Positions 1,086 through 15,748 of a stretch of DNA of 64,000 bases are shown here, one piece after another. Position numbers and translations under genes: made by a program. The stretch covers positions 2,944,001 through 3,008,000 of the forward strand of contig CBDANF010000003.1 of the NCBI GenBank assembly GCA_965197475.1. Direction: 5' to 3'. The notes beneath the pieces were generated by a model, which was given only the letters and a program-made list of their open reading frames with translations, was not told where the DNA came from and ran no database searches. This DNA is from Candidatus Poribacteria bacterium. Lineage in GTDB: Bacteria; Poribacteria; WGA-4E; WGA-3G. The first letter of the stretch is position 1; each line of letters begins with the position of its first letter.

Positions 1086-1313
1086 ACCCAATGCGAATTT
1101 TCGTGATTTAAATTCCTCAAAATCTATACTTTTCGCATAAGTAATTCATTAAAGTGCATGCGGTAAAAGATGGACGAATTTAGTTTTCAAAAGCGTCTTA
1201 GATGTGGTATAATGTGAATGAATTTATTTCAATGTCCGCACGAATTCTTCGCACCACCAAAGATCTACATATTTAATTTTAAAATAAAAAAGTTTAGAAA
1301 AAAGGACAACAAC

Positions 1314-1646
1314 ATGGGTAAAATAGCCGATGCAACCTTTCAAGGTAAGATGGACACCTACAACTTTGGGGTTTATACCACGGACACGGTTTTCATTGAC
1401 GTTGGAGCCGTTTACATATTCTCAAAACGTGTAGTTGGATCCGATGGAAGGGGTACACATACGTTTCTATACATCGGTCAAACACATTCACTTGAAGACA
1501 GAATCCCGTATCACGAACAGTGGCTCTGTGCACAGAGGAATGGTGTAAATTGTATATGCGTTCATCCAGACGATGATGCCAGTTCCCGAATAAAAAAAGA
1601 AGCAGATCTTCTCGCTACAAACCCCACCCCGTGTAACAGAGAATAG
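1314..1646 (+). CDS. Small stand-alone GIY-YIG-like protein (110 aa)
   Basis: ATG at 1314 after AAGGA. Motifs GAVYIF...FLYIGQT..L..RI..H and E.DLL...P.CN resemble the GIY-YIG nuclease fold. Confidence 0.6.
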   Translation: MGKIADATFQGKMDTYNFGVYTTDTVFIDVGAVYIFSKRVVGSDGRGTHTFLYIGQTHSLEDRIPYHEQWLCAQRNGVNCICVHPDDDASSRIKKEADLLATNPTPCNRE

Positions 1647-2680
1647 TTCATGCTTAATCATCGGAAATAGCTCAAGGAAGATTATCAAATGGCGATACTA
1701 GAAGGTTTTAGAGTAAGGAACTATGGTGTTCTAAAAGATGTGACATTGGGTCGTCTATGGGACCAAGGGAAAGTACCGCTCACTCCTATAACTGCAATAA
1801 TTGGAAAAAATGGAGTCGGTAAGACCACATTATTTGATGCGTTTGGTTTCCTTGCTCATGCTTTTAAGTTTGATGTCGAGACAGCTTGTGATGATCGCGG
1901 AGGTTTAAAAAAATACGTTCGCAAGGAGAGAAAGAGCCAATTGTTTTTGATGTGTACTACCGAGAACATAAGAATGTTCAACCTATTACATACCAAGTAG
2001 CAATTGGAGATGACCAATTTGGTCGTCCTTATGTCCTACAAGAACGTCTCAGGCAAAGGCGAAAGGGACAGAAATACGGTGAACCGTATACTTTTTTAAG
2101 ACTTGATAACGGTAGTGGGGTAGCGTGGAAAGGCAACCAAGAAGGCTATCAGAAAACTCCTTTTGAATCCATAAAATCAATAATTATAAGTACTTCAAGT
2201 AGCAAAAAAAAAGAAAAAGTTAAAAAGATAGATATAAAAAAAGGTGACCTTATTGACGATAACGAGAACTCAAGTCAAGCCTCAAGTAACTTAGACCTCT
2301 TAGAATACATAGTCAATAAGGAAGCCGACGAGACTGAGATTATTAAATTGGAGGATCCGCGAAAACTTGGCATTGCCACTCTCGGTGCTTTGAAGCAGCA
2401 TCCGCGAATTTCTGCTTTTCGTAGGTTCATTGAAGGATGGTTTCTTAGTTACTTCACTCCTGATGCAGCACGTAACTTACAATTTGCCGGCCCGCAAGAA
2501 CACCTCAATATACAAGGCGATAACCTCAGAAACGTTGCGCAATTTATGGAGCGCGAATACCCTCAACGTTTCCAAGTAATTCTAAAAAAAAATCGCAGAT
2601 AAAATTCCGGGCATAGAAAAAATTGACACCAAGAAAACAGAAGACAATAGGTTACTACTCAGGTTCAACGAAAAAAGGTT

Positions 2681-3666
2681 GGCTCATGTAAAAAGTAAGT
2701 GCTATTTTTTCAAAGTTATGTTAGCGTGTTACCTATGGACTTTCCAATACAATCTCTCCTGGATGAAGAAAAAACTCAAGCGTGGGTGTTGGATCATTTC
2801 CACCTTCAAGGGCTGTGTTGCCCAAAATGCCAAGCGAGCGTGGCGGAGGCACGCAAGTTCCGTCCGACTGAAACAAGTGGTCTACAAGTGTATCGCTGCA
2901 AACACTGTGAGAGCATCTACAACCTCTATACCGGGACGGTCTTTGCTGGCACGCAGTTTCGTCCCTCACAGGTCGTTCTGCTTTTGCGCGGTGTCTGTCA
3001 AGGTGTTTCAAGTGCACAACTCGGGTGTGAACTGGGTCTAAGTCGTCAAACCGTTCTTTCTATAAGACGTAAACTCCAAACTTCGGCAGAGCAGATACAA
3101 CCCGAAGCTGCTTTACCTGATGCTGAAGTCGAAACAGATGAGATGTTTCAAAACGCCGGTGAAAAAGGCGATAAGCACGTTGATGCTTCGGATCCGCCGC
3201 GTCGGCGTGGCAATAAACGCAGGGAACATGGGACTTATGACAATGATCGTCCGCCTATTGTTGGGACGAAAGGTCGCGAAAGCGGTCTCCTGAGATTACG
3301 TGTTGTGCGGCACACCGATTCTGCGACGCTTTCAACACACGTTCATCAGTGGACGTTGCCGACTTCAACGGTGTATACGGATGGTTGGCGTGGCTATAAC
3401 CGTATTCAGCGCGCCCGTGAGATTGTTCTCCATAAGGATGGCGAGTGGGCAAGAGACGCAGACGGTGATGGTCTTTACGAGATCCATACAAGGACGATTG
3501 AAGGTGCCTGGACGACGCTGCGAAACTTCCTTCGTCCCTTTCGTGGCGTTCATAAAAAGTTCCTCGCCGGTTACGTCGCAATCTGTGAGTTCGTCATGAA
3601 TCTAAAAGCTGTCAGTGTTGATTTTATAGCAAAACTCGTCAAAAGCACTTACTCTTGACATGAGCG
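2681..3666 (+). mobile_element. IS1595-family insertion sequence (copy A)
   Basis: 23-bp imperfect TIRs GGCTCATGTAAAAAGTAAGTGCT / rc CGCTCATGTCAAGAGTAAGTGCT. 8-bp TSD AAAAGGTT at 2673-2680 and 3667-3674. Confidence 0.95.
2735..3658 (+). CDS. IS1595-family transposase
   Basis: N-terminal Zn ribbon (CPKC...CKHC), VETDEMF, VYTDGWRGY and HTRTIEGAW motifs. Confidence 0.92.
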   Translation: MDFPIQSLLDEEKTQAWVLDHFHLQGLCCPKCQASVAEARKFRPTETSGLQVYRCKHCESIYNLYTGTVFAGTQFRPSQVVLLLRGVCQGVSSAQLGCELGLSRQTVLSIRRKLQTSAEQIQPEAALPDAEVETDEMFQNAGEKGDKHVDASDPPRRRGNKRREHGTYDNDRPPIVGTKGRESGLLRLRVVRHTDSATLSTHVHQWTLPTSTVYTDGWRGYNRIQRAREIVLHKDGEWARDADGDGLYEIHTRTIEGAWTTLRNFLRPFRGVHKKFLAGYVAICEFVMNLKAVSVDFIAKLVKSTYS

Positions 3667-4066
3667 AAAAGGTTTTCAAGATCCCTTCCAAGTTGAGCAA
3701 ATGTCCGATGGAACACTCAAACTGTTTGCATATCTTCTGATGCTTGAAAATCCTACGCCACCGCCATTTCTTTGTATTGAAGAACCGGAAAACTACTTAT
3801 ATCACAAACTTTTGGAGATTCTCGCCACTGAATTCCGAGAACATGCAACAGGACTCAAAGGCGGTTCACAGGTTTTTGTTACGACGCATCAACCATACTT
3901 TGTCAATGCATTAGACCCGAAAGAGGTCTGGATCCTCGAAAAAAAAGAAGATGGGTTTTCCAAAATCCGTCGGGCAAGCGAAGATCCGCTTGTGAATAAC
4001 CTGGTTGAAGAAGGGTTACCTTTGGGCGGGCTCTGGTATAGCGACTATCTTGACCCGAGGTAATTA

Positions 4067-4708
4067 ATGCACTTTGAGATACTTATTGAAGACTTGTCAG
4101 GCAAGAAAGCACTTCAGATTTTGATTCCAAAAATCGTCGGTGCGCGACATACATTCAGTATCTATCCCTATAAAGGAATTGGACACCTTCCAATAAAATC
4201 TCAAAATCCGACAACTGCGAATACTGGTCATTTGCTTGACGATCTACCAAAGCAGCTCCGTGCTTATGGAAAAAGTTATGCCAATGATCCTACCAAAGTT
4301 GTAATTGTCGTTTGCGACTTGGATAAAAGGTGTTTGAAAACATTTCGAAAAGAACTTTTTTCTGTCCTTAATGCGTGTAACCTCAAACCAGAGACTCGGT
4401 TTTGTATTGCTATAGAAGAAGGTGAAGCCTGGCTGCTTGGGAATATCCCCGCGATCAAGAAAGCTTTCCTAAAAGCCATTGATAATGTTCTGAATAGTTA
4501 TCAAAATGACTCTATTTGCGGAACGTGGGAACTTCTGGCTGATGCTATATACGCAGGAGGTGCAAAATCGCTGCAAAAGAAAACTTGGCGTGCAAGAGGC
4601 AAGGTAAAATCAGTATGGGCACAAAAAATAACTCCATATATGAATGTAGACAAAAACGCGTCTCCCAGTTTCTGTTATTTTCGAGATAAGATTCGAGAAT
4701 TGATCTGA
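4067..4708 (+). CDS. DUF4276-like (TOPRIM-type) partner of the upstream AAA ATPase
   Basis: MHFEILIEDLS...VVCDLD...IAIEEGEAWLLG...SPSF motif pattern; starts 4 nt after the ATPase stop. Confidence 0.7.
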   Translation: MHFEILIEDLSGKKALQILIPKIVGARHTFSIYPYKGIGHLPIKSQNPTTANTGHLLDDLPKQLRAYGKSYANDPTKVVIVVCDLDKRCLKTFRKELFSVLNACNLKPETRFCIAIEEGEAWLLGNIPAIKKAFLKAIDNVLNSYQNDSICGTWELLADAIYAGGAKSLQKKTWRARGKVKSVWAQKITPYMNVDKNASPSFCYFRDKIRELI

Positions 4709-5744: not shown

Positions 5745-5916
5745 AAATGTGATCGGTGAATAGCCCACCTCAAACTGGGTATAGTATTGAGAAATTTATT
5801 GATTATGAAACGTGAATCTGGTATAAGAATACCAGATTACTATCTGTATTGCATTAGTGTTAAGTCCGTGCTTCAGAATTGGTAAAACCTCCTATATAGG
5901 AAAGGAGTCTCATTTG

Positions 5917-8900
5917 ATGAAAAAACATATTTTTCGTTTTGCCATATTTACGTTAATCTGTCTATTCTTTTGTATGCTATCTGTTGAGTTTGTTTATGCT
6001 GGGATTGAAGCTTCTATTATACTTGATATAGACCTTAACGAAAATGGTCTCATGCGTGATATTGCGGCGACAGCTACGCGTTTTTATGTCTTGTTTGCAG
6101 GCAGGCAACCGGAAATAGGAGGAACGTCCAATAGTGGATCGTCTTATATACGGAAAGTCTACGTTTTTGACCATGAAGGAACACGTAAACCAGACGAGGA
6201 GTTTGAAATAGATACAGAACTGACACCATACAGCATTGCAGTAACAAATAAATTTATCTATATTTCATACTGGGATAGTTCCGGTATTGATGCCTATGCG
6301 TTTGATGGTACGCGTTTACATGATGAGGGCTTACGTTATGCCTCTGCAGGTCAAAAAAGTAGTATAGCAGCAACAGAGACGCACATATATGTTTCAGATG
6401 TCTCTTATTTAGATGAAGTTGATATTTACAAGTTTAAAGATACACAAGGCGATCTAAACGCAAGGAACGTTTCCTGGGAGAAAGAATTTAAACTTACCAC
6501 AAATGAGAGTCTTAGAGCTTTCATCGCCGCAACAGATACCCGTGTCTATATCCAAAATCCTAACGATTCTACAATCTATGTCTACGATACCCGGGACGGT
6601 GGTAGACGCGCACGTGAAGATTTCGTACACTGCTTATGGACTGGGCTAAGGAAAGAATCTATTTACGTCCCCTCACGCTATTTATCAGGCATTACAACAA
6701 CACCATTAGGTGGAAAATTGTATATGTTAATTTCCCGATCAAGGGATGATGGAATAGAGGGACGCCAACTTAAGGTCTATAGGTATTCTATTCCGGAAGA
6801 AAATGCTGCACGTCCTGAGGTCTTTTTGCCTGCAAAACCGCCTCGCAGAGCAAGTTATTATTTCTATTTGCCGCCTTCTGGTTCCGGGATAGCTGCGACT
6901 GATACAACCGTCTATATAGGAGCTGATGGTTCACGTTATTTTGGTCGTGCTGCTACAATACATGCCGAAACCTATTCCGATGGGGTACCGGGCAGTTTAT
7001 TCGCAGATGCCGGCAAACTGAGAGGTAATATATCCGTAACCTATCCTCATCTAGGTTCTTCCGGTATGACAGTTGACTATAACAATATCTATCTGCTTAT
7101 TCGTCGGGCATCTGATGTACTTACTCAAGAACACAACTATGCCGTTCGACACTGTTTACTTAATTCAGATGGAACTATTCATGGTGGTAAGACGACATTA
7201 AGAGATCTTCAACTACCACTTGCAATGGAAAATTTTAAGAATGGAATAGGGCTAGCTATTGACTCAGAAGGAATTCTATACGTGATGGCTGCTGGTGAAA
7301 ATTACAAAGGACCTCCGCTAATCTATCGATATAAACCTTCATTGGATTCTCCACAACATAGTCAAGCTTTGCCTGGTAACCCTATCTTGTTACATCCTGA
7401 CCATAAGGCTCCATGCGGTATAACGATTGTAAAAAACCGCGCTTATGTTCTGGATAGGGCGTTTATAACTGATGAAGGCACCCCTCGATTGTACGCAAAG
7501 GTTTTTGTCTACGATTTGGATGCCCACGATGTATTTGAGTACTTACCTGAGGAGAGTTTTTTAGTAAATGCCCGAATAGGAAATCAGACAATCATACCGT
7601 ATGATTCAGGTATTGCTGTAAATGGAGACACATTTTTCATCTCAATGAGAGCAGAGTGGCCTTCCAATTATAAACATGTTCTTGTCTACGGTCCTCTTGC
7701 AGCACCGAGTTGGGGGCCCATACGCGCAGATACAATTCAGCGTAGGCAACCCTATGGTGGGGACATTAGAAGAATGTCAATAGTGGCTACAAATGGTAGT
7801 GACTACTACAAATACCAGGCAATCGAAGGTATTCCATGGATTCTTTCACTGGATTTTGACTTTGTATTTGGCAATCCTGATCCTTCCATTACCTTTAAAA
7901 CAGGTTATAAAAAACCAGAATGGTTGACCTTAAAGGATGGTGTTCTATCAGGTACCCCTTCATCAGCAGGTAAGTTAACAATTGAACTCACTGCCACCAA
8001 CGAACAAGGAAGTACGGATGAAAGTATCACCTTAAACGTTGGTCCGGGGGTTGTGGCACCGAGTTGGCATGATTTCTCAGTGCCAGAGATAAGGATACAC
8101 GATGCTTGGTCATTAACCTTAACTGACTTGGTTACTGGTAATCCGACACCGGAGATATATTTTACACAAGGATACACACCACCTGACTGGTTAAAGCTAA
8201 GAGAAGGCGTGTTATCAGGGACACCGCCAAAGGCGGGTACATATTCTATCCAAGTTACCGCTGCCAGTGCTCTCAGACGCCCTGGCTATGTAAAGTGGGC
8301 GGATATTGTGATATATTTGGTTGTCAAAGGTCCAACATCTCCTAATTGGGCACTTGATTCCATGAACGATACTGCACAAGGTATCGCCGCTACGGACAAC
8401 CGGATCTATGTGACAGACCTTATTGATGACAAAATCTATGTTTACGGACACGATGGAGAGCGATATGTTGCTCAGGATATAGACCTCAAGACACTCACAG
8501 AAAACCCAATCGGTATCACTGCTACGGTGACACATATCTATATTGTTGATAACAGCGAGGATATCGTCTCAATTTTAGATGTTACAGAAACAGGTTCTGT
8601 CGGCAATTTCAAGCTTGACCCCGATAATAGAGGTCCAACCGGTATTGCAGCGACAGCAAGACGACTTTATGTTGTTGACCACGAGGATGATAAGGTCTAT
8701 ACCTACGCACACGACGGTACACGGCACCCTACTGAGGATGTTAACCTGCACAAACATAGTGAACCCACCGGTATTACAGCGACAGCGACACGACTTTATG
8801 TTGTTGACGGTGATGATGACAAAATCTATCCCTATGAATATGATGGCAAAATGAAGAACAGTGAAATTGTTGAACTTGTTACAGAAAACAGAAGTCCAAC

Positions 8901-10707
8901 TGGTGTTACTGCAACACCAGCGCATCTGTTTGTCGCAGATATTATTGACCAGAAAGTCTATTCATATCCGATCCCTGGTGTTACCGAGGTTGTTGTAACT
9001 GTAGGCGCGCCGAGTTGGAAGCCCGTGTCAATTCCCGAAGCAGTGAAAGGTTCCCATTGGACGCTCTCCTTAGCAGATTTCGTAAAAGGGGACCCAACGC
9101 CACAGATCTACTTTACAGACGGTTATACGTCATCTAACTGGCTTACGTTGCAAAATGGTGTGCTTTCAGGCACCCCTACGATGGCTAACACTGAATATAT
9201 CAAAGTTACCGCAACAAATAGTAAGGGAAGCGCAGACATAACAGTACCGCTTTCTGTGTCGCATTCAGAATATACATCCTGGGACCTCAACCCCGAAGAA
9301 ATTTATGTAAATACCATTGCCAGCACAGAAGAGTTTGTCTATGTGTTTTATGGGACCCAGAATAATATACCTCACATAAGTGCTTACACTCATGATGGAA
9401 TTCGCCGTCCGGATAAGGATATAAAACTTGGAACGGAACATAGAAAAGACTCACACAGCATTAACACCCACATCACCGCCTCTGAAACACATCTTTTTAT
9501 GGTGGAGACATATAACGATTCCGATGAATCGAATCCAACTGGTGGAAGAAAAGTCTATGTGTTTGACATTACAGGAACAGGCACTAAACGGCATTTTTTT
9601 CTAAGTAGGGAGGTAGGTATGTACACAGCGGAGATTGCTGCCACTACAACGCGCTTTTATGCAGTCAATTGGTCTGAAAGGAAATTCCATGTTTACGGAC
9701 ACGATGGAACACCTTACCCAAATGAGGATTTTACACTCAAGCCGCACGACACTGAAGGTACATTTTTTTTGGACGTAGCGACAACTGAAACGCGTATCTA
9801 CGTTTTGTTAGCAAAAGTGAATGGTTATGTTCGTGGTAAAGTTTTTGTATATGGGCATGATGGCACACCTTATCCTGACGAAAACTTCAACGTCGGTGAA
9901 GTAAAAACTGTAGATATTACAGCAACATCAACGCATCTGATGGCATATTCCGGTCCGTATCTTAGAGGCATAAATACCGGCTCTATTTTTTACTTCCCAC
10001 TTCCTGAGGCGGAAGGAAACACCGAAACAGCTGTTCATATCCAAGATACAACGCCCGCTTGGGATGTCAATCAGGATGGAAAGGTTGATATCCAAGACCT
10101 AATTAAGGTCGCACAGTATATTGATGAAACAGAACTTTCTAATCCACAAGCAGACGTAAATGGAGATGGAACAATTGATGTTCAAGACCTACTCATTGTT
10201 TCACAACATTTAGGAGAATCAGCTGAGGCAGCATCACCTATAAAAACAACTGCTTTGCGATTTCCTGCCCTTGTAAAAAACGTTGCAGATGGTGATGTCA
10301 CAACGGAACTAATTCAAACATGGATAGACCTTGCGCGGATTTCGGACGATGGTTCGCCTGTTTTTCAGCGCGGTATTGCAAACTTAGAACGTCTATTAGC
10401 TGAGATGCTACCAGATAAGACAGAACTCCTCGCAAACTATCCGAATCCTTTTAACCCAGAAACGTGGATACCTTACCATCTTGCTAAGGAAGCTGAGGTG
10501 CAAATTACTATTTACGATATAAACGGTGCTGTCGTGAGACAATTAGACCTGGGATTGAAACTCGCCGATAATTATACGGACCGTTCCCGAGCTGCTTTTT
10601 GGGATGGACGCAATGCTGATGGTGAGAAGGTTGCAAGCGGAATTTACTTCTATCAACTCCGTGCAGGCGGCTATGATCACACCCGCAGAATGCTTATTGT
10701 TAAATAG
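5917..10707 (+). CDS. Large secreted protein: beta-propeller (NHL-like GIAAT..R.YV.D) repeats, three putative-Ig (He_PIG-like) domains, dockerin-like EF-hand pair, C-terminal FlgD-Ig/T9SS-like domain
   Basis: Signal-like N-terminus. Three P.WLTL..GVLSGTP repeats. DVNQDGKVDIQDL/DVNGDGTIDVQDL. LLANYPNPFNPETWIPY...WDGRN..GEKVASGIYFY. Confidence 0.85.
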   Translation: MKKHIFRFAIFTLICLFFCMLSVEFVYAGIEASIILDIDLNENGLMRDIAATATRFYVLFAGRQPEIGGTSNSGSSYIRKVYVFDHEGTRKPDEEFEIDTELTPYSIAVTNKFIYISYWDSSGIDAYAFDGTRLHDEGLRYASAGQKSSIAATETHIYVSDVSYLDEVDIYKFKDTQGDLNARNVSWEKEFKLTTNESLRAFIAATDTRVYIQNPNDSTIYVYDTRDGGRRAREDFVHCLWTGLRKESIYVPSRYLSGITTTPLGGKLYMLISRSRDDGIEGRQLKVYRYSIPEENAARPEVFLPAKPPRRASYYFYLPPSGSGIAATDTTVYIGADGSRYFGRAATIHAETYSDGVPGSLFADAGKLRGNISVTYPHLGSSGMTVDYNNIYLLIRRASDVLTQEHNYAVRHCLLNSDGTIHGGKTTLRDLQLPLAMENFKNGIGLAIDSEGILYVMAAGENYKGPPLIYRYKPSLDSPQHSQALPGNPILLHPDHKAPCGITIVKNRAYVLDRAFITDEGTPRLYAKVFVYDLDAHDVFEYLPEESFLVNARIGNQTIIPYDSGIAVNGDTFFISMRAEWPSNYKHVLVYGPLAAPSWGPIRADTIQRRQPYGGDIRRMSIVATNGSDYYKYQAIEGIPWILSLDFDFVFGNPDPSITFKTGYKKPEWLTLKDGVLSGTPSSAGKLTIELTATNEQGSTDESITLNVGPGVVAPSWHDFSVPEIRIHDAWSLTLTDLVTGNPTPEIYFTQGYTPPDWLKLREGVLSGTPPKAGTYSIQVTAASALRRPGYVKWADIVIYLVVKGPTSPNWALDSMNDTAQGIAATDNRIYVTDLIDDKIYVYGHDGERYVAQDIDLKTLTENPIGITATVTHIYIVDNSEDIVSILDVTETGSVGNFKLDPDNRGPTGIAATARRLYVVDHEDDKVYTYAHDGTRHPTEDVNLHKHSEPTGITATATRLYVVDGDDDKIYPYEYDGKMKNSEIVELVTENRSPTGVTATPAHLFVADIIDQKVYSYPIPGVTEVVVTVGAPSWKPVSIPEAVKGSHWTLSLADFVKGDPTPQIYFTDGYTSSNWLTLQNGVLSGTPTMANTEYIKVTATNSKGSADITVPLSVSHSEYTSWDLNPEEIYVNTIASTEEFVYVFYGTQNNIPHISAYTHDGIRRPDKDIKLGTEHRKDSHSINTHITASETHLFMVETYNDSDESNPTGGRKVYVFDITGTGTKRHFFLSREVGMYTAEIAATTTRFYAVNWSERKFHVYGHDGTPYPNEDFTLKPHDTEGTFFLDVATTETRIYVLLAKVNGYVRGKVFVYGHDGTPYPDENFNVGEVKTVDITATSTHLMAYSGPYLRGINTGSIFYFPLPEAEGNTETAVHIQDTTPAWDVNQDGKVDIQDLIKVAQYIDETELSNPQADVNGDGTIDVQDLLIVSQHLGESAEAASPIKTTALRFPALVKNVADGDVTTELIQTWIDLARISDDGSPVFQRGIANLERLLAEMLPDKTELLANYPNPFNPETWIPYHLAKEAEVQITIYDINGAVVRQLDLGLKLADNYTDRSRAAFWDGRNADGEKVASGIYFYQLRAGGYDHTRRMLIVK

Positions 10708-10838
10708 TATCAAATGACCATAGGATATCTGGAAGGTTGATGTTTATTGGCTTCCCAGCGATCATTAATGAGTGGGTTGCGTTGGGATCGCGAGCATCCT
10801 CTTTGAGAAATGATGCGTTTAGCGATAAACGTGTCTAA

Positions 10839-10867
10839 AGTATAGCAAAACCAGTAGCGGTTGTCAA
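10839..10867 (-). promoter_or_regulatory. Near-consensus sigma70 promoter inside the 3' end of the DUF1670 element
   Basis: Minus strand TTGACA-17 bp-TATACT with an extended -10 TG. Confidence 0.7.
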
Positions 10868-10934
10868 CCATATTTTCAAGGCACCTGCCCCGGTTTTGCG
10901 AAGTAAAGTTCGTCGGGAACATAGGATTAGGGTC

Positions 10935-11819
10935 TCATTGGGCTTCTCCTTGGTGAGTGGCTTCATCGTTTGAGTCTGAATTGGCAAGGTCTGCATCTAT
11001 GGCTTGGAGTTGGTGCTGCGGTATGAGGTCGAGATATTGAGAGATGACGCGTTTAGAAAGTCGTGTAATCTGTGAGATTTTATCAATATCTGCGGTTGCT
11101 TTCCGAACGACTTTGACGCTCTCATAATCGCGAATGTATCGGTCAACTGCCTCCTTAGAGTGTTTGGTCTTTGCGGCAATCCTGGGGGTGAGATGTCCTT
11201 GAAGATAGAGGGTTATGATCTCTTTCTTATGGGTAATAGCCCCCGATAAGTCATGGATATTGCCACGGGTGGGCAAGAGTTCTCCAGTGGTTTTTTGCCA
11301 TTCATTAACATAATCACAGACAACGGCATCGCAGACATTGAGCAAAACTGCCAAGTCGAGTTGTGTCAATAATGCCCCTTGGTCATAAGCTTGATGACAC
11401 CAGCGGACCAAGCGATTGATCCGCAATTGCCGGGAGGTGAAACCGTTGCGAAAGGATTCAATATCCTCTGCGGCGAGGTAAGTCAGGATGACGGGTTTCA
11501 TGCGGGTTTTGACGATGGACTTTCCTCTTTCTGGATGCTCTTCAATAGGGACAGCCATCCAAACGAGGTGTCCATAGCTCAGCAGCCGCTCCTCTGGGAG
11601 TGCGTCACCAGTGGCGAGTTTCTCCAAAGGAAGGGTAATCACGAAATAGTCCTCAACGGTCTTAAGAATATCATCAACAATAGCTGTCGCCGTGACTTCG
11701 CCTTTGTCATAACCGTAGTCATTGAGAAAGCGATGGATCAGCAACTGTCGTAGGGATTTATCGTTGATGCGTCTGAACTTTTTCTCGTTGATTTGGGTGC
11801 GCGTCAAAGGTTTGCTCAT
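10935..11819 (-). CDS. DUF1670-like protein (ORF2)
   Basis: QAYDQGALLTQLDLAVLLN...PTRGNIHD.S...THK...HSKEAVDRY; paralogous to ORF1. Confidence 0.75.
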   Translation of the reverse strand: MSKPLTRTQINEKKFRRINDKSLRQLLIHRFLNDYGYDKGEVTATAIVDDILKTVEDYFVITLPLEKLATGDALPEERLLSYGHLVWMAVPIEEHPERGKSIVKTRMKPVILTYLAAEDIESFRNGFTSRQLRINRLVRWCHQAYDQGALLTQLDLAVLLNVCDAVVCDYVNEWQKTTGELLPTRGNIHDLSGAITHKKEIITLYLQGHLTPRIAAKTKHSKEAVDRYIRDYESVKVVRKATADIDKISQITRLSKRVISQYLDLIPQHQLQAIDADLANSDSNDEATHQGEAQ

Positions 11820-12635
11820 CAGAGTTCCTCCTTTTTTTTCTCCACGGGCTCTGGGTGAAGGAGTTGGGTCATGCGATCGGTGTGTTGATATTCCTCGGAC
11901 AGCGAGAGATACTCGCGGATCAGCCGGTCAGAGAGATGAGTGATGAGTGATGAGCCGTATCTGTGCGTTAGGAAAACCTTGATGATGGAGCGTGGCGACT
12001 TGTATTAAGTCCCTCAAGTAGCGGTAGACGGCCCGTTCGGAGTGGTTCGTCTTTTGCTCAATCTCGGTGAAGGTGTATGCTTTGAAGGACAACTCAAGAA
12101 TCTGCGTCTTATGAGACAGTCCCGGGCCCATGTCGTGTTTCGCCCCGCGCGTCATCACGAAATAGCCGGACTGCTTCAACGCTCGGATGTCGCGTTTGAC
12201 GGTGGCAGGACTGGTAGTTAATAACACTGCCAAATCCTCATAACTCAGCAAGGCATCTTGGTCATAAGCTTCTTGGGTCAATCGGAGGATCCGATGCCGT
12301 CTGAGACCTGCGAGCCCATAAGTCGCTAAAACTTCAAGGTCGGCTTCAACATCGTTGAGTTTGAGTCGACAGGAAACTTTTTTCGCTAAAGCGATGTGTT
12401 TGCCTGCGGGTTCCTCAGCGGCGACTGCCTCATAGCAGATTTGCCCTGAGGTAAGTTGCACATCGGCGTGCTGTTCAAAGTAGGTGGAAATCTGTTTATA
12501 GTAGGCTTCAGCAACGAGAGGCATTAGATTAAAGTCTGCTGAAATCTTCTGAATAATAGCGGCTCTGGCATTCTTGGATTCCAGTCGATTGATACCGTAG
12601 GCGGTATCCTTCTTACGGTCCATATTGACCTCCAT
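11819..12635 (-). pseudogene. DUF1670-like protein (ORF1), frameshifted by a 7-bp tandem duplication
   Basis: EAYDQDALLSYEDLAVLL...TRGAKHDMGPGLSHK...HSERAVYRY. Removing one CTCATCA unit (~11934-11954) restores ...ITHLSDRLIREYLSLSEEY...EKKKEEL*, ending in a TGATG overlap with ORF2. Confidence 0.75.
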
Positions 12636-12757
12636 GAAGAAAGTGTCGGCGATGCAAATACATCTACCCGTTAGTTTAACGAATACTAATAGTATAACTC
12701 ATGGGGTCATTTGATACAAACTATAAGTAAGTTGAAACCTATTTCCTAAATATATGC

Positions 12758-12782
12758 GTAGGCGCGCTTTGTAAGCGCGCCT
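12758..12782 (+). repeat. GTAG-type REP-like palindrome
   Basis: GTAGGCGCGCTTTGTAAGCGCGCCT: GTAG followed by a hairpin. Confidence 0.6.
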
Positions 12783-12882: not shown

Positions 12883-13212
12883 CTAACGAATTGCAGTTGG
12901 GACAATTTGAGCGATAAATTTCAAACTGTTTTCCAACTTTTCGATTGCCTCTGATTCGCGAGCTGTCCCACTCTTGAGTTCAATCGAAACTCCCACAAGA
13001 TTATTTTCAGTTGGAGAAATAAAAAAGAGAAGTCGGTCACACCTTTTTTCAGTTTTTTGGCGCAAATCAAACTCATGTTCAAGATTTACAATCACCCGTT
13101 CGGATGGTATGTCATCCATGTCAACATTGCATCCTTCTCCACTGCATGCATCAACTAAACTACCTGTATTAAAACGTGCACGGAGTTCACCAAGAATTCT
13201 ACTCTGATTCAC
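12883..13212 (-). CDS. Small PD-(D/E)XK-like partner of the AAA ATPase (possibly C-terminally truncated)
   Basis: RCDRLLF...VSIELKSG motif; overlaps the ATPase stop. Confidence 0.55.
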   Translation of the reverse strand: MNQSRILGELRARFNTGSLVDACSGEGCNVDMDDIPSERVIVNLEHEFDLRQKTEKRCDRLLFFISPTENNLVGVSIELKSGTARESEAIEKLENSLKFIAQIVPTAIR

Positions 13213-14609
13213 GCTTAGTGTTGCCTTTCATTTCTTCAAGTCGATTTTGTAGACGTGCGGAACGGTTGTAAAGGTCCTCAGCGACATCCAAATATTCCAT
13301 CGGTTCAACGCCGTCAATACGATTGTAAGGTATTTCTTCCACCTTTCCATTTTTCTGAAAATGCCAAATTCCAACTTGTTCTGTCTGAAGAGAAGTCGGC
13401 AGGTCGCTAACTTCCTGCCCTGCGTTCTCAAGTTCTCCTGCACGTATCAGATTCCCTATTTCCTGAAGTAACCAATCGCTATGTGTTGTTATTATTATTT
13501 TCACGCCTGCCCGAACTAAACGTGCAAGAATGACTGCCATGCCTGCTTGGGCACCCGGGTGTAGGTGTGCCTCCGGTTCTTCAATGATCAGCGTATCACC
13601 TGGCTGTACAAGACTTCGGAGATATAGGACTAAGGGCGCAAGTTCAGATACCATTGAGGAAGATTGGCTGAGACGAAATTCTTCATTAGTGCCTTGTGGT
13701 AAATAACGAAAGTCCGGATACCCACTCGCTGAAGGTTTTAAGCGTATCTTTCCAGCAAGTACTTCAGTTTCCAAAGTTTCAGAATGTTGTTTCATCTCAG
13801 CATTCGGTTTTTTTGGTTCTTCGTAAAGGATAATTTTTTCCATAAAGTCTGCTATCACTCCTGACATAGTGGGAACCTCAGGAAAACGTTCGAAACCTAC
13901 TCGGGTTGATCGCTTTACAAGCGAAGTTGCTATCACTCGATGACTTTGCATGATGCCGCTCCGGGCAGCAGGAAGGTAGTAACGGTTTCCTCCATTTTTG
14001 ATGTTTCCCTTAAAACCATGTATTTTTTTTACTCCGCTTGTCAGTTCAACTCCCCAATCTCCGCTAAAAGTGAAATTAAAATTACCTTCACCTTTCCAGT
14101 CTGTGGAGATTGCCAATCCCTCAGGAATAAGAATCATAGTCTCGTTGAATGAACTATTAAGGATAACATCTGATTCAGATGTATTTAACTTGATACTCCA
14201 ACCGTCTTGCTGTTTTTCATCAACCATCAGTGAAACAGTCATTTCATTTTTTTCTCCCGTTGTCAATCGTCTTAATTCCAAAATTGCATCAAAATCATAA
14301 CAGTTTTTGAGTTCAGACTGTAGTTTGTCCCCAAAAACCTCTGCATCATCAATAATTGTCTTTAAGAGATCTCGTAGTTCTGTTGGAAAATCTAACAATC
14401 TAAAGGCCCCTGTCACTGGTGTTTAGTTTTTTGAGCACATCCTGAACTTTTTGCTTTGCTGATGGACTCGCGTTTGTCAAAACAAAGTTCTGTAAAGCAT
14501 GTAAAATACCTACAATCCCTTGGAGCCCAGATGGAAATAGAAGTTGGGGTTCTGTCATATCCGGAAATACACCGTACAAGGCGTACACCAGCGTAGAAAA
14601 ATAAGTTTT

Positions 14610-15748
14610 CGGAATAAGTCGTTTTGGACTTGACAAAAGTTGGAAAAGTGCGCTAAACCCTTGTAAATAAAGGGTTTTCATAGTATAATATCAGTAAGAA
14701 AATAGGGGGTATCAACCCCCTATTTGAAACTCAAAAAAGCGAGTTGCTTTTCTGGTTCACACTTATCTGATATTGTATCAGAAACTATCAGAAAAATGCA
14801 ACTCCAAAAAACAGGAGTGTTTTCTGATGGATTTAATCAAGGTGATGAAGACGTTCTCAACGCAAGAGGATTGCATCGAATATCTGGAGCGGCTCCGATG
14901 GAAAGAATCGCCAGAATGCCCGCATTGTCCAAGTCTAAACGTCCGAAGGCGGAACGAACACGAGGTTGGGCGTGTCGGACGCTGGAACTGCCACGATTGC
15001 CGTGCTACATTCAAGGTGACACACGGCACAATATTTCACGGCACGAAGATACCGCTCCAAAAGCGGTTTCTCGCTATCGCTCTCATGGCAAACGCAAAGA
15101 AAAGTTTGTCCTCCCATCAACTTGCGCGCGATTTAGGGATGAAACAGAAAGCTGCTTGGTGTCTAATGATGGCTATACGCACAGAGATGGGAAAGGATAA
15201 TGTCCTACTACAAGGGGTCATTGAAGCAGATGAAACCTATATCGGTGGTAAGCGTCGCAAAGACTATGACCGGGAGGATGGTGAACCCCGTAAACGCGGA
15301 CGCGGCACCGCTAAAGATGCCGTGCTGGGCGCAGTCGCACGTGGTGGACACGTCATCGCACAACTCGTATCCAACGCCACTGGTGAGACGATCTCCGACT
15401 TCATCAACAGATTCGTCAATACCGAAGATTCTGAACTCATTACCGATCAGTATAGAAGCTACAACGAAATCGGTAAGGAAATGAAACATGAGACACTTAA
15501 CCGTAGTGAGAAATGGGAGGCTGGCGACATCCATACCAATACGATGGAAGGCTTTTGGTCTTTCGTCAAGAGGGCATGGTATGGACAACAACACCACTAC
15601 TCAACAAGATACACGCCCCTGTATCTCGCAGAGGCAGGCTATAAATATAACTACCGAGAAACCAACATCTTTGAGAAGTTTCTCACCGAAAGTATAACGT
15701 GAGAAATCTGAAAAATAAAAACTTCCAAGTCCAAAACGACTTATTGCG
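14610..15748 (+). mobile_element. IS1595-family insertion sequence (copy B)
   Basis: 23-bp TIRs CGGAATAAGTCGTTTTGGACTTG / rc CGCAATAAGTCGTTTTGGACTTG. 8-bp TSD TAAGTTTT at 14602-14609 and 15749-15756. Confidence 0.95.
14827..15702 (+). CDS. IS1595-family transposase
   Basis: CPHC...CHDC Zn ribbon, IEADETYIGG, ITDQY and HTNTMEGFWS motifs; AGGAG RBS. Confidence 0.93.
   Translation: MDLIKVMKTFSTQEDCIEYLERLRWKESPECPHCPSLNVRRRNEHEVGRVGRWNCHDCRATFKVTHGTIFHGTKIPLQKRFLAIALMANAKKSLSSHQLARDLGMKQKAAWCLMMAIRTEMGKDNVLLQGVIEADETYIGGKRRKDYDREDGEPRKRGRGTAKDAVLGAVARGGHVIAQLVSNATGETISDFINRFVNTEDSELITDQYRSYNEIGKEMKHETLNRSEKWEAGDIHTNTMEGFWSFVKRAWYGQQHHYSTRYTPLYLAEAGYKYNYRETNIFEKFLTESIT

What the first reader, a model, noticed from the sequence alone, without database searches (positions are those of the whole stretch)
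10707..12717. TIR-bounded mobile element whose only cargo is a pair of DUF1670-like proteins: candidate new IS class
Seen: perfect 13-bp inverted repeats (GTATCAAATGACC) exactly bracket 2011 bp. Inside are two paralogous, translationally coupled (TGATG) ORFs. No DDE, HUH or serine-recombinase gene is present, and no clear TSD. The first G of the left repeat completes the TAG stop of the upstream gene; joining the flanks gives GTT AAA TAA, still a stop. Both proteins keep TRG..HD...(S/T)HK...HSxxAVxRY. Known: DUF1670 has no assigned function, as far as I recall; tyrosine recombinases end in an H...Y catalytic segment and do not generate DDE-type TSDs. Inference: the pair is a heteromeric, possibly tyrosine-type transposase acting on these ends.
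Basis: partly seen in the sequence, partly recalled or inferred. Interest (0 to 1): 0.9.

Follow-up and report, generated by a model that had tools for sequence, protein, structure and literature searches.

The report
New insertion sequence without known transposase
A 2-kb jumping gene, present about twenty times in this sponge-bacterium genome, slips in exactly at the stop codon of secreted-protein genes and carries only two DNA-binding proteins of unknown function, so it may move by an enzyme type not yet described.

Summary
The genome has 18 full-length copies and 2 partial ones, and 6 full copies are 100% identical at different loci. Five related genomes have the orthologous site empty. 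Public DNA contigs carry this very locus without the element (a 2023-bp skip).

The true ends are not the 13-bp repeats. The element runs ATAG...CTAT (10704-12724), with 0-2 A duplicated.

Insertion is specific for site and orientation. In this genus it lands between the last sense codon and the final Lys-stop of genes ending in a T9SS sorting domain. The element supplies its own A+TAG, so the host protein is unchanged. In a sister genus the same element sits in the loop of a REP-like palindrome. Bacteroidota relatives do likewise.

The only genes are two paralogous DUF1670 proteins, both under purifying selection. This pair recurs across bacterial and archaeal phyla and is sometimes fused. 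Pfam, NCBIfam and Foldseek find only helix-turn-helix modules, with no DDE, DEDD, HUH, serine or tyrosine recombinase fold.

Best reading: a new IS family whose DUF1670 heteromer is the recombinase, chemistry unknown. The tyrosine-recombinase idea is not supported by fold, though R, H-K, H and Y residues are invariant. Recruitment of a host enzyme is not excluded.

The parts
10704..12724 (-). The element proper, ATAG...CTAT (2021 bp here, 2014 bp in intact copies). With the ambiguous A's it can equally be written 10702-12724 (AAATAG...CTAT, 2023 bp, no duplication).
   Evidence: Ends are conserved in 18/18 copies and in 20 copies from relatives. Orthologous empty sites. A public DNA contig joins 10700 to 12724, skipping 2023 bp with 3 ambiguous letters.
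10702..10703 (.). Left copy of the AA that is also at 12725-12726. It is either a 0-2-nt duplication or a shared crossover core. With the element's A10704 it rebuilds the host's last Lys codon.
   Evidence: One of 40 sites (L113) has AG on the right, which fits a 0- or 1-nt but not a 2-nt duplication.
10705..10707 (+). TAG stop codon supplied by the element for the upstream host gene.
10707..10719 (.). Left 13-bp terminal inverted repeat, GTATCAAATGACC.
12705..12717 (.). Right 13-bp terminal inverted repeat. It is followed by 7 element bases (AAACTAT), so the two ends are asymmetric: 3 nt versus 7 nt outside the repeats.
10935..11819 (-). ORF2, 294 aa, DUF1670 type B, intact.
   Evidence: AF2 model pLDDT 87.7.
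11819..12635 (-). ORF1, DUF1670 type A. It is a pseudogene in this copy (235-aa reading then frameshift); intact copies give 270 aa.
   Evidence: AF2 model of the intact form, pLDDT 87.0.
11935..11948 (.). 7-bp tandem duplication (GATGAGT x2) that frameshifts ORF1 in this copy.
   Evidence: Copy lengths 2011 vs 2004. '7 left out at 11935' in contigs of other copies.
10720..10934 (-). Non-coding 3' region. It is poorly conserved between the two Poribacteria lineages.
   Evidence: alignment. No Rfam match. Fold z-score -1.44.
12636..12704 (-). Short 5' non-coding region upstream of ORF1; presumed promoter and RBS.
   Evidence: The promoter role is inferred only.
12725..12730 (+). The host gene's original last Lys codon and stop (AAG TAA), displaced to the right of the element.
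   Evidence: Orthologues end AAG+stop in 5/5. Empty allele.
5857..10704 (+). Host target gene: a 1616-aa protein ending in a T9SS type A sorting domain (...TRRMLIVK).
   Evidence: TIGR04183 37.1 bits (cut-off 23) and PF18962 32.8 bits (cut-off 27).

Best explanation
This is an autonomous, recently active insertion sequence of a family not yet described. Its only genes are two paralogous DUF1670 proteins: type A (ORF1, 270 aa when intact) and type B (ORF2, 294 aa), translationally coupled. These act together as the element's recombinase. Inferred mechanism: the helix-turn-helix modules of the pair bind the 13-bp terminal repeats (core CAAATGAC) and bring the ends together. The DNA is cut at the ATAG/CTAT termini. 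The element is joined, in one orientation only, immediately 5' of an A(A) that lies about one helical turn downstream of a recognised sequence. In this genus that sequence is AARATGNTNAT, the ...K-M-x-I... codons at the 3' end of T9SS sorting-domain genes. In a sister genus it is the arm of a REP-like palindrome. Because the left end begins (A)ATAG, the insertion rebuilds the host's last Lys codon and stop, so the host protein is unchanged (a safe harbour). Shown: mobility, exact ends, empty sites, target and orientation specificity, purifying selection on both ORFs, and absence of any known recombinase domain. Inferred: that the pair itself catalyses breakage and joining, which residues do it (candidates are the invariant R118/R139, D134/D155, H175/H197-K, H198/H220 and Y206/Y228), and whether the pathway is cut-and-paste or goes through a circle. 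The window's own copy has a frameshifted ORF1, so it would have to be moved by the 14 intact copies.
For: Copies. There are 18 full-length copies and 2 partial ones, all ending at the same bases. Six are 100% identical and three more form a second identical set, each with different flanks.

Empty sites. The orthologous gene ends uninterrupted in AAG+stop in 5 of 5 same-genus genomes. Contigs of two public DNA runs join 10700 to 12724 with no mismatch in the flanks.

Target. 16 of 18 full copies and both partial copies follow a ...RKMxIxK gene end. 18 of the 40 such gene ends found by my regex are occupied. 12 of 13 copies in six other genomes of the genus sit at the same kind of site. The target domain is a T9SS sorting domain.

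Retargeting. In G035 and G026, 5 of 6 copies sit in the loop of a palindrome present 73 and 36 times; the one G034 copy lies elsewhere. Bacteroidota relatives also sit in hairpin loops, with empty copies found.

Autonomy. The 13-mer repeat occurs 38 times, never outside these copies.

Genes. 14 of 18 copies keep both ORFs. Between the two lineages, third-codon-position differences are 125 vs 33 and 25 (ORF1) and 148 vs 54 and 31 (ORF2).

The pair is general. 69 of 80 loci from many bacterial and archaeal phyla hold adjacent type A and type B ORFs. Many sit on about 2-kb contigs. Fused 2x and 3x proteins carry no other catalytic domain. The family has 1004 clusters at 50% identity.

Conserved polar residues are shared by both types in 59 pairs.

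No known transposase or recombinase family matched: NCBIfam, Pfam, PDB profile, Foldseek PDB on both models and BFVD.
Against: Neither protein contains a recognisable catalytic fold. Both models are helical arrays of HTH and winged-helix modules plus one beta-hairpin, the architecture of DNA-binding regulators. The invariant H, K, H and Y lie on an HTH_23/HTH_29-like module and could simply contact DNA. I could not read model coordinates, so I do not know whether they cluster. No experiment or read evidence shows a circle junction, a covalent intermediate or transposition driven by these proteins. A host or other trans-acting enzyme is not excluded; the assembly is 92.7% complete. One of 40 junctions (L113) does not fit a 2-nt duplication.
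Confidence: 0.6

Rival explanations
1. The DUF1670 pair only recognises DNA (element ends and target) and recruits an enzyme encoded elsewhere, such as a host recombinase, nuclease or topoisomerase, or another element's transposase. That enzyme does the cutting and joining. The element would then be a site-specific 'hitch-hiker', comparable in logic to Xer-exploiting elements.
For: Both proteins look like pure HTH and winged-helix arrays, and the best fold neighbours are all DNA- or RNA-binding proteins. No catalytic family is detected.
Against: The same two-gene unit is mobile in hosts as far apart as Poribacteria, Chloroflexota, Bacteroidota and ANME/Methanoperedens archaea, so the helper would have to be near-universal. 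No other element in this genome shares the terminal repeat. Targets are many different sites, not one dif-like site. R, D, H, K, H and Y residues are invariant in both paralogues over 59 pairs, which is more than DNA binding usually demands.
Confidence: 0.27
2. One reading: the pair is a divergent tyrosine recombinase. The conserved Tyr of the ...H....V.RY segment is the nucleophile, and the element moves through a circular intermediate.
For: Y206/Y228 is 98-100% conserved, H198/H220 98-100%, H175/H197 97-98%, R118/R139 100%. No long target duplication is seen. Insertion is orientation-specific and site-specific.
Against: There is no Phage_integrase match. The PDB profile search gave no tyrosine recombinase, and neither did the top 50 Foldseek hits for either model. 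The H...Y segment aligns to HTH_23/HTH_29-type recognition helices. The order of conserved residues differs from R-K-HxxR-H/W-Y (recalled). Only 0-3 nt are shared between ends and target, so there is no 6-8-bp overlap region. No circle-junction joint appeared in the laid contigs, but contigs drop rare forms.
Confidence: 0.12
3. Target choice is RNA- or DNA-guided, as in IS110/IS1111 bridge RNAs or IS200/IS605 guide sequences. This would explain how nearly the same element targets CTD gene ends in one genus and a REP palindrome in another.
For: The two lineages keep the same ends but differ most in the non-coding 3' and 5' regions. The targets differ completely.
Against: No stretch of the element matches either target better than shuffled targets do: best 9 against up to 11 for shuffles. 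There is no Rfam family. The 237-nt non-coding region folds no better than 20 of 200 shuffles (z -1.44). Accepted CTD targets vary at most third codon positions, which fits degenerate protein read-out better than base pairing. Split guides of 4-7 nt would have escaped my test.
Confidence: 0.06
4. It is not a mobile element at all. The copies arose by segmental duplication or gene conversion among paralogous sorting-domain genes, and the DUF1670 genes are ordinary regulators.
For: Most copies lie next to paralogous gene ends. Two copies share a right flank (C3:845190 and C2:1160548).
Against: Homology stops at the same base in every copy while the flanks differ even at synonymous sites. Precise empty alleles exist. 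One of the six identical copies sits at a site that is not a sorting-domain gene (C3:3736918). The same element is in a different target in other genera.
Confidence: 0.01

Closest known systems
IS110/IS1111 family (DEDD transposase with bridge RNA)
   Same: Site- and orientation-specific insertion, often into REP-like palindromes. Only a 2-nt core is shared by element and target, with no long duplication. The ends are asymmetric, and IS1111-type members have subterminal inverted repeats (family properties recalled). Observed here: REP-loop targets and an AA core.
   Different: No DEDD/RuvC-like transposase. There are two HTH-only genes instead of one. No structured non-coding RNA and no guide-target match were detected.
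Tn7 with TnsD at attTn7 (downstream of glmS)
   Same: A conserved coding 3' end is read as the address, and the element inserts just beyond the coding sequence so the host gene survives (Tn7 facts recalled). Here the recognised motif is the last 5-6 codons of T9SS sorting domains, and the host ORF is kept intact.
   Different: Tn7 needs TnsA, TnsB and TnsC (nuclease, DDE, AAA+) and makes 5-bp duplications. Here there are only two DUF1670 proteins and a 0-2-nt duplication. The address is a multi-copy paralogous domain, so the element reaches about 20 copies. The element itself supplies the stop codon.
IS630/Tc1/mariner
   Same: Short terminal inverted repeats, a dinucleotide duplication, and a bipartite 'paired-like' HTH DNA-binding region. 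Weak sub-threshold HTH_23/HTH_29 matches; Pax paired domains are among the fold neighbours. A TA may be duplicated in the Bacteroidota relatives.
   Different: There is no DDE catalytic domain at all. There are two genes, and targets are highly specific rather than any TA.
IS1202-group elements that insert next to dif/pdif sites
   Same: An IS with a fixed offset from a recognised site. I saw only the abstracts in the search listings (PMC10132070; bioRxiv 10.1101/2022.12.17.520857).
   Different: Those encode a conventional transposase and target Xer sites. This element does neither.
Pfam DUF1670 (PF07900)
   Same: Both ORFs are full members (205.8 and 186 bits against a cut-off of 25).
   Different: The family carries no function. 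None of my searches found a paper naming it.

Membership tests
Insertion sequence (generic) | Several copies with identical ends at unrelated loci, and alleles without the element | tested here: met
   18 full and 2 partial copies. Empty orthologous sites in 5/5. An empty allele of this locus in public contigs.
Insertion sequence (generic) | Carries only genes for its own movement | tested here: inconclusive
   The only genes are the DUF1670 pair. That they cause movement is inferred.
Pfam DUF1670 (PF07900) | Score above the gathering threshold | tested here: met
   205.8 and 186.0 bits against a cut-off of 25.
DDE transposases (IS3, IS4, IS5, IS630, etc.) | DDE/RNase H-like catalytic domain | tested here: not met
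   No Pfam or NCBIfam transposase model matched. Foldseek gave no hit at E<=0.001 for either model, and no RNase H-like entry is among the listed neighbours.
Tyrosine recombinases | Phage_integrase catalytic fold | tested here: not met
Tyrosine recombinases | R-K-HxxR-H/W-Y catalytic residues in that order (order recalled) | tested here: inconclusive
   Conserved R, R, H-K, H and Y exist, but in another order and on an HTH-like module.
Tyrosine recombinases | 6-8-bp overlap region shared by the two partner sites (recalled) | tested here: not met
   Only 0-3 nt are shared.
Serine recombinases / IS607 | Resolvase-type catalytic domain with a nucleophilic Ser | tested here: not met
   No match. 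Only the HTH of resolvase appears, at E>1.
Serine recombinases / IS607 | 2-bp crossover dinucleotide common to both sites (recalled) | tested here: inconclusive
   AA is at both junctions in 39 of 40 sites, but this is equally a short duplication.
IS110/IS1111 | DEDD transposase | tested here: not met
IS110/IS1111 | Structured non-coding guide RNA with target and donor complementarity | tested here: not met
   Short split guides were not excluded.
IS200/IS605, IS91 (HUH) | HUH/Y1 or Y2 domain | tested here: not met
MITE / non-autonomous element | No coding capacity, and ends shared with an autonomous partner | tested here: not met
   Two conserved ORFs. No other element has these ends. One 432-bp deletion derivative does exist (C3:94120-94551).
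Xer-exploiting elements (IMEX) | Integration at the single chromosomal dif site | tested here: not met
   At least 20 different sites in this genome.

The most novel reading that the evidence does not exclude
The heteromer of two DUF1670 paralogues is a new class of DNA transposase or site-specific recombinase, alongside the DDE, DEDD, HUH, serine and tyrosine enzymes. It is built only from helix-turn-helix-type modules, and its active site is formed by the invariant R, D, H-K, H and Y residues that sit on the DNA-binding modules themselves. It is widespread in bacteria and archaea (1004 clusters at 50% identity). It inserts with single-base precision and fixed orientation at addresses that have been re-set during evolution: the stop codon of T9SS sorting-domain genes in one genus and REP hairpin loops in others.
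Probability: 0.45. Interest if true: 0.95.

Novelty: categorically new. Interest (0 to 1): 0.86.

Why it matters
All characterised prokaryotic transposable elements move by one of a handful of enzyme types. Here mobility is documented at base resolution, yet the element's only genes show none of those enzymes.

If the DUF1670 pair is the catalyst, it is a new recombinase class. It would give a function to a domain of unknown function with about a thousand 50%-identity clusters.

If the pair instead recruits a host enzyme, it is a new way for a multi-copy element to move.

Either way the targeting is remarkable. The element reads the conserved last codons of a paralogous secretion-signal domain, inserts in one orientation before the final Lys-stop, and carries a replacement Lys third base plus stop codon, so that about 45% of such genes in this genome (18 of 40) host a copy with their protein sequence unchanged. 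Sister lineages have switched to REP hairpin loops. A compact, two-protein, sequence-addressed and orientation-specific integration system is also of practical interest for genome engineering.

Tried and rejected
1. Exact-match search for inverted repeats around 34 DUF1670 pairs from other phyla. Only 6 of 34 beat the best of 30 shuffles. In one of these (L055) the long repeat turned out to be the target palindrome, not the element's ends. Short ends cannot be found this way. Ends were instead defined by copy comparison in four lineages.

2. Single-copy or poorly informative genomes. The Methanoperedens genome behind L031 has one copy. The Ardenticatenaceae genome has two diverged copies in a nest of other repeats. 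Archaeal ends therefore remain undefined.

3. Guide search, Rfam and folding of the 3' non-coding region. Nothing rose above chance.

4. PDB profile search. The only hit was a designed HTH repeat protein (8vd6, E 4e-4). The ESM Atlas gave only HTH_23-type archaeal clusters with scores <=0.81. PADLOC gave none and PHROGs only transcriptional-regulator HTH hits. Plasmid collection: no match. BFVD: no hit at E<=0.001.

5. Complex prediction on ORF1 and ORF2 alignments. Score 0.27, below the mark of 0.32: no verdict, not used as evidence either way.

6. RNA libraries X4 and X6 (sponge metatranscriptomes) hold pieces of the element at summed depths of about 30-700 against 0-3 for the flanks. The element is multi-copy and DNA carry-over cannot be excluded, so I do not claim transcription. 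No 'goes back' (circle) joint was listed, but contigs drop rare forms, so this says nothing.

7. Alignment A3 was meant to be ORF1-type but turned out to be type B, so it was not used. A4 replaced it.

8. Literature. 'DUF1670', 'PF07900' and 'IPR012869' each returned 0 papers. Three broader searches listed nothing on such an element. ISfinder itself could not be queried; its absence there is inferred from the lack of any NCBIfam transposase match.

10. I could not read model coordinates, so I could not test whether the invariant residues cluster in space.

Full report
**What is at the coordinates**

The 13-bp repeat GTATCAAATGACC (10707-10719) and its reverse complement (12705-12717) are perfect and 2011 bp apart. 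Between them, on the minus strand, lie ORF2 (10935-11819, 294 aa) and a 235-aa reading of ORF1 (11928-12635). Both match Pfam DUF1670, 'Protein of unknown function' (E 7e-61 and 8e-55, cut-off 25 bits). NCBIfam, which holds NCBI's transposase naming models, gave only sub-threshold HTH regulators.

**It is a multi-copy element with sharp ends**

The genome (5.70 Mb, 3 contigs, 92.7% complete) holds 18 full-length matches of 92-100% identity and four partial pieces. The pieces form two partial copies:
- an internally deleted one at C3:434730-436501;
- a 432-bp deletion derivative at C3:94120-94551.

The 13-mer occurs 38 times, never outside these copies. In 18 of 18 full copies the conserved sequence runs past the repeats:
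- on the left, AAATA precedes the repeat;
- on the right, AAACTATAA(G in 13, A in 5) follows it, and then comes T(A/G)(A/G).

The canonical copy is 2004 bp between repeat ends. It has ORF1 of 270 aa and ORF2 of 294 aa, overlapping as ATGA. 14 of 18 copies keep both ORFs, one of them with a 269-aa ORF1. The window's copy is 7 bp longer because GATGAGT is tandemly duplicated at 11935-11948, which frameshifts ORF1. Six copies are 100% identical to each other and three more form a second identical set, so movement is recent.

**True boundaries and empty sites**

In five genomes of the same genus the orthologous gene ends ...ATGCTTATTGT(T/A/G) AAG followed by TAA, TGA or TAG, with nothing inserted (5 of 5 loci).

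The window reads ...ATTGTT AA|ATAG...CTAT|AAG TAA G.... The right-hand AAG TAA is therefore the host's own Lys-stop, and the left-hand A+TAG belongs to the element.

Independently, contigs of two public DNA runs join base 10700 to base 12724. They skip 2023 bp, three letters (TAA) are ambiguous, and there are no mismatches over 601 and 161 flanking bases in the longer contig. This very locus therefore exists without the element.

The element is ATAG...CTAT (10704-12724), with AA on both sides. Equivalently, it is AAATAG...CTAT with no duplication.

Over 40 reconstructed sites, 39 fit a 2-nt duplication. All but one (the diverged right end of the 444-bp derivative) fit a 0- or 1-nt duplication.

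The idea of looking for one was right.

**Target specificity**

In 16 of 18 full copies the upstream flank, read in frame with the TAG, is ...AAYWDG.N..GE.VASG.YFY.L........RKMxIxK*. The window's example reaches the thresholds of the T9SS type A sorting domain: TIGR04183 37.1 bits against 23, and PF18962 32.8 bits against 27.

A regex for such gene ends found 56 hits. Of these, 40 also carry the G.Y.Y signature with no stop. 18 of the 40 are occupied (16 full and 2 partial copies) and 22 are empty. The empty sites end in AAG (17) or AAA (5). The displaced codons to the right of the full copies show almost the same mix, AAG (13) and AAA (5). This supports the reading that they are the original codons.

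The two exceptions:
- C3:3736918 is not in such a gene but has a similar sequence (...GTCGTTTCTT|AAATAG). It is one of the six identical copies.
- C3:845190 follows a degenerate ...TKQVVLK.

In six other genomes of the genus, 12 of 13 copies examined sit at the same kind of gene end. The thirteenth (L113) follows AAAATGTTGA..., which resembles the usual motif.

All insertions have one orientation, with the ORFs antisense to the host gene. That orientation is what lets the element's end supply the third base of Lys and the stop, so the host protein sequence is unchanged.

**The address changes between lineages**

Elements with the same ends, whose proteins are 78-80% identical to this one, occur in another family of the order.
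- In G035 (4 copies) and G026 (1 of 2 copies) they sit in the loop of the palindrome GAAACCGAGTTTT-GAAGAA-AAAACTCGGTTTC.
- That palindrome occurs 73 and 36 times in those genomes, against 0 for the reversed control.
- Occupied sites have two more A than the common empty form.
- The second G026 copy (L103) and the single G034 copy (L105) lie at other sites.

In a Bacteroidales genome two 100%-identical 1792-bp copies sit in the loop of GTCCCCC-loop-GGGGGAC inside a ~150-bp repeat, and I fetched four empty copies of that repeat. A second Bacteroidota element (L055) sits at the centre of a perfect 26-bp-arm palindrome. A Chloroflexota genome has several copies and contig-end fragments with constant ends.

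The ends share a core across these phyla:
- Poribacteria: ...TTTGTATCAAATGACC;
- Bacteroidota: TTTGTGCCATTTGGC and GTCAAATGAC;
- Chloroflexota: AATGACCCACCG.

**The genes**

Between the two Poribacteria lineages, differences fall mainly at third codon positions: 125 against 33 and 25 in ORF1, and 148 against 54 and 31 in ORF2. Both proteins are therefore under purifying selection.

A search of 1.84 billion representatives found 1004 clusters at E<=1e-3. Eight long forms were scanned. Four of 930-952 aa hold three DUF1670 units and two of 521-532 aa hold two. None has another catalytic domain, and one 400-aa protein adds a CHC2 zinc ribbon.

Of 80 loci from named genomes (Chloroflexota, Methanoperedens/ANME, Bacteroidota, Desulfobacterota, Atribacterota, Cloacimonadota and others), 69 show two or three adjacent same-strand DUF1670 ORFs. 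Seven of the 11 single-ORF loci abut a contig end, and many contigs are only 1.5-2.5 kb.

The upstream ORF is always of one type (A) and the downstream of another (B). In 59 pairs both types keep the residues below (ORF1/ORF2 numbering), besides type-specific residues:
- R118/R139
- Q126/Q147
- D134/D155
- R163/R185
- D168/D190
- G170/G192
- H175/H197
- H198/H220
- Y206/Y228
- Y240/Y262

Neighbours of pairs in two isolates are unrelated genes (lgt, a copper ATPase, a sigma-54 activator, a separate IS4-type DDE gene on the other strand), so there is no constant partner in cis.

**No known catalytic fold**

AlphaFold2 models are confident (ORF2 pLDDT 87.7, ORF1 87.0). Each shows three N-terminal helices, one beta-hairpin, and then winged-helix and HTH modules.
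- Foldseek against the PDB gave no hit at E<=0.001. The best were 0.26 and 0.063, with TM about 0.15: MntR, SelB winged helices, Pax paired domains, TFIIB.
- BFVD gave none at E<=0.001.
- The family profile hit only a designed HTH repeat in the PDB.

The segment THK...H....V.RY lies on an HTH_23/HTH_29-like module. This weakens the analogy with the H...Y end of tyrosine recombinases. So does the lack of a 6-8-bp shared overlap region.

**How it most likely works, and what remains open**

Shown:
- a compact element that moves and has moved recently;
- single-base and orientation precision;
- an address that sits about 8-18 nt to one side of the joint and that differs between lineages;
- only two conserved genes;
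- no other element with the same ends.

Inferred:
- the A/B pair binds the ends and the address through its HTH modules and itself breaks and joins DNA;
- the invariant R, D, H-K, H and Y residues are the candidates;
- whether the chemistry is metal-dependent hydrolysis and transesterification or goes through a covalent intermediate cannot be told from sequence.

I put 0.60 on the pair being the recombinase and 0.27 on it recruiting a helper. Within the first, about 0.12 falls on a tyrosine-type mechanism. I found no sign of an RNA or DNA guide, though short split guides were not excluded.

**Comparison and novelty**

In behaviour it is closest to three known systems:
- IS110/IS1111: site-specific, REP-loving, with a 2-nt core.
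- Tn7/TnsD: reads the end of a conserved gene and spares it.
- IS630/Tc1: resembles the DNA-binding modules.

It fails the defining catalytic-domain test of each (see Membership tests). No paper in the searchable library names DUF1670, PF07900 or IPR012869. Supplements and ISfinder could not be checked. I therefore rate it as lying outside the known kinds: an insertion sequence family with an unrecognised mobility machinery and a stop-codon-replacing, safe-harbour mode of insertion.

The organism is probably a member of Candidatus Poribacteria, judging by the source names of near-identical proteins and of locus L074.

Noticed in passing
window 12760-12782: A perfect 10-bp-stem palindrome (AGGCGCGCTT...AAGCGCGCCT) lies about 30 bp after the host gene's original stop. 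It is probably that gene's terminator, now separated from the gene by the 2-kb insertion.
   Followed up: no
window 14773-15702 (+): A 309-aa ORF with a Cys-rich N-terminus. From memory it looks like an IS1595-type transposase, which would make it a second, unrelated mobile element close by. Not tested with any tool.
   Followed up: no
window 12883-14416 (-): A 405-aa ORF with ATPase-like motifs overlaps the start of a 109-aa ORF just right of the element. It may be a small defence-type gene pair. Not tested.
   Followed up: no
window 5857-10704 (+): The host gene encodes a 1616-aa protein of many repeated units ('IAAT.T..YV'-type), two dockerin-like DxNGDG segments and the T9SS sorting domain. 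Only the last 140 aa were scanned.
   Followed up: partly
G035:C1, e.g. 1894819-1897594 and 2032411-2033497: The REP-like palindrome that serves as target in the sister genus often stands in arrays, spaced about 190-350 bp apart. There are 73 copies in G035 and 36 in G026. Its own nature is unknown.
   Followed up: partly
L094-L097 (genome G057, Bacteroidales): A ~150-bp repeat is present in dozens of copies. It contains two G/C-rich hairpins (GTCCCCC..GGGGGAC and CCCCCC..GGGGGG). It is the target of the Bacteroidales DUF1670 element.
   Followed up: partly
window 10727-11036 and 10852-12690 (joints); G000 C3:94120-94551: Shorter variants and deletion derivatives of the element circulate in the same metagenomes (skips of 308 bp and 1837 bp). 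One 432-bp MITE-like derivative sits at a sorting-domain gene end in this genome.
   Followed up: partly
window 10803-10822 vs 11037-11056, and 10716-10726 vs 10917-10927: The 3' non-coding region carries degenerate echoes of the 3' end of ORF2 and of the sub-terminal sequence. This suggests an old internal duplication of about 200 bp. Variants lacking about 308 bp here exist.
   Followed up: partly
L093 (Desulfofundulus thermobenzoicus) 1186-4151: In this isolate the upstream gene holds two DUF1670 units (562 aa) and the downstream gene one (449 aa), so three units are spread over two genes.
   Followed up: partly
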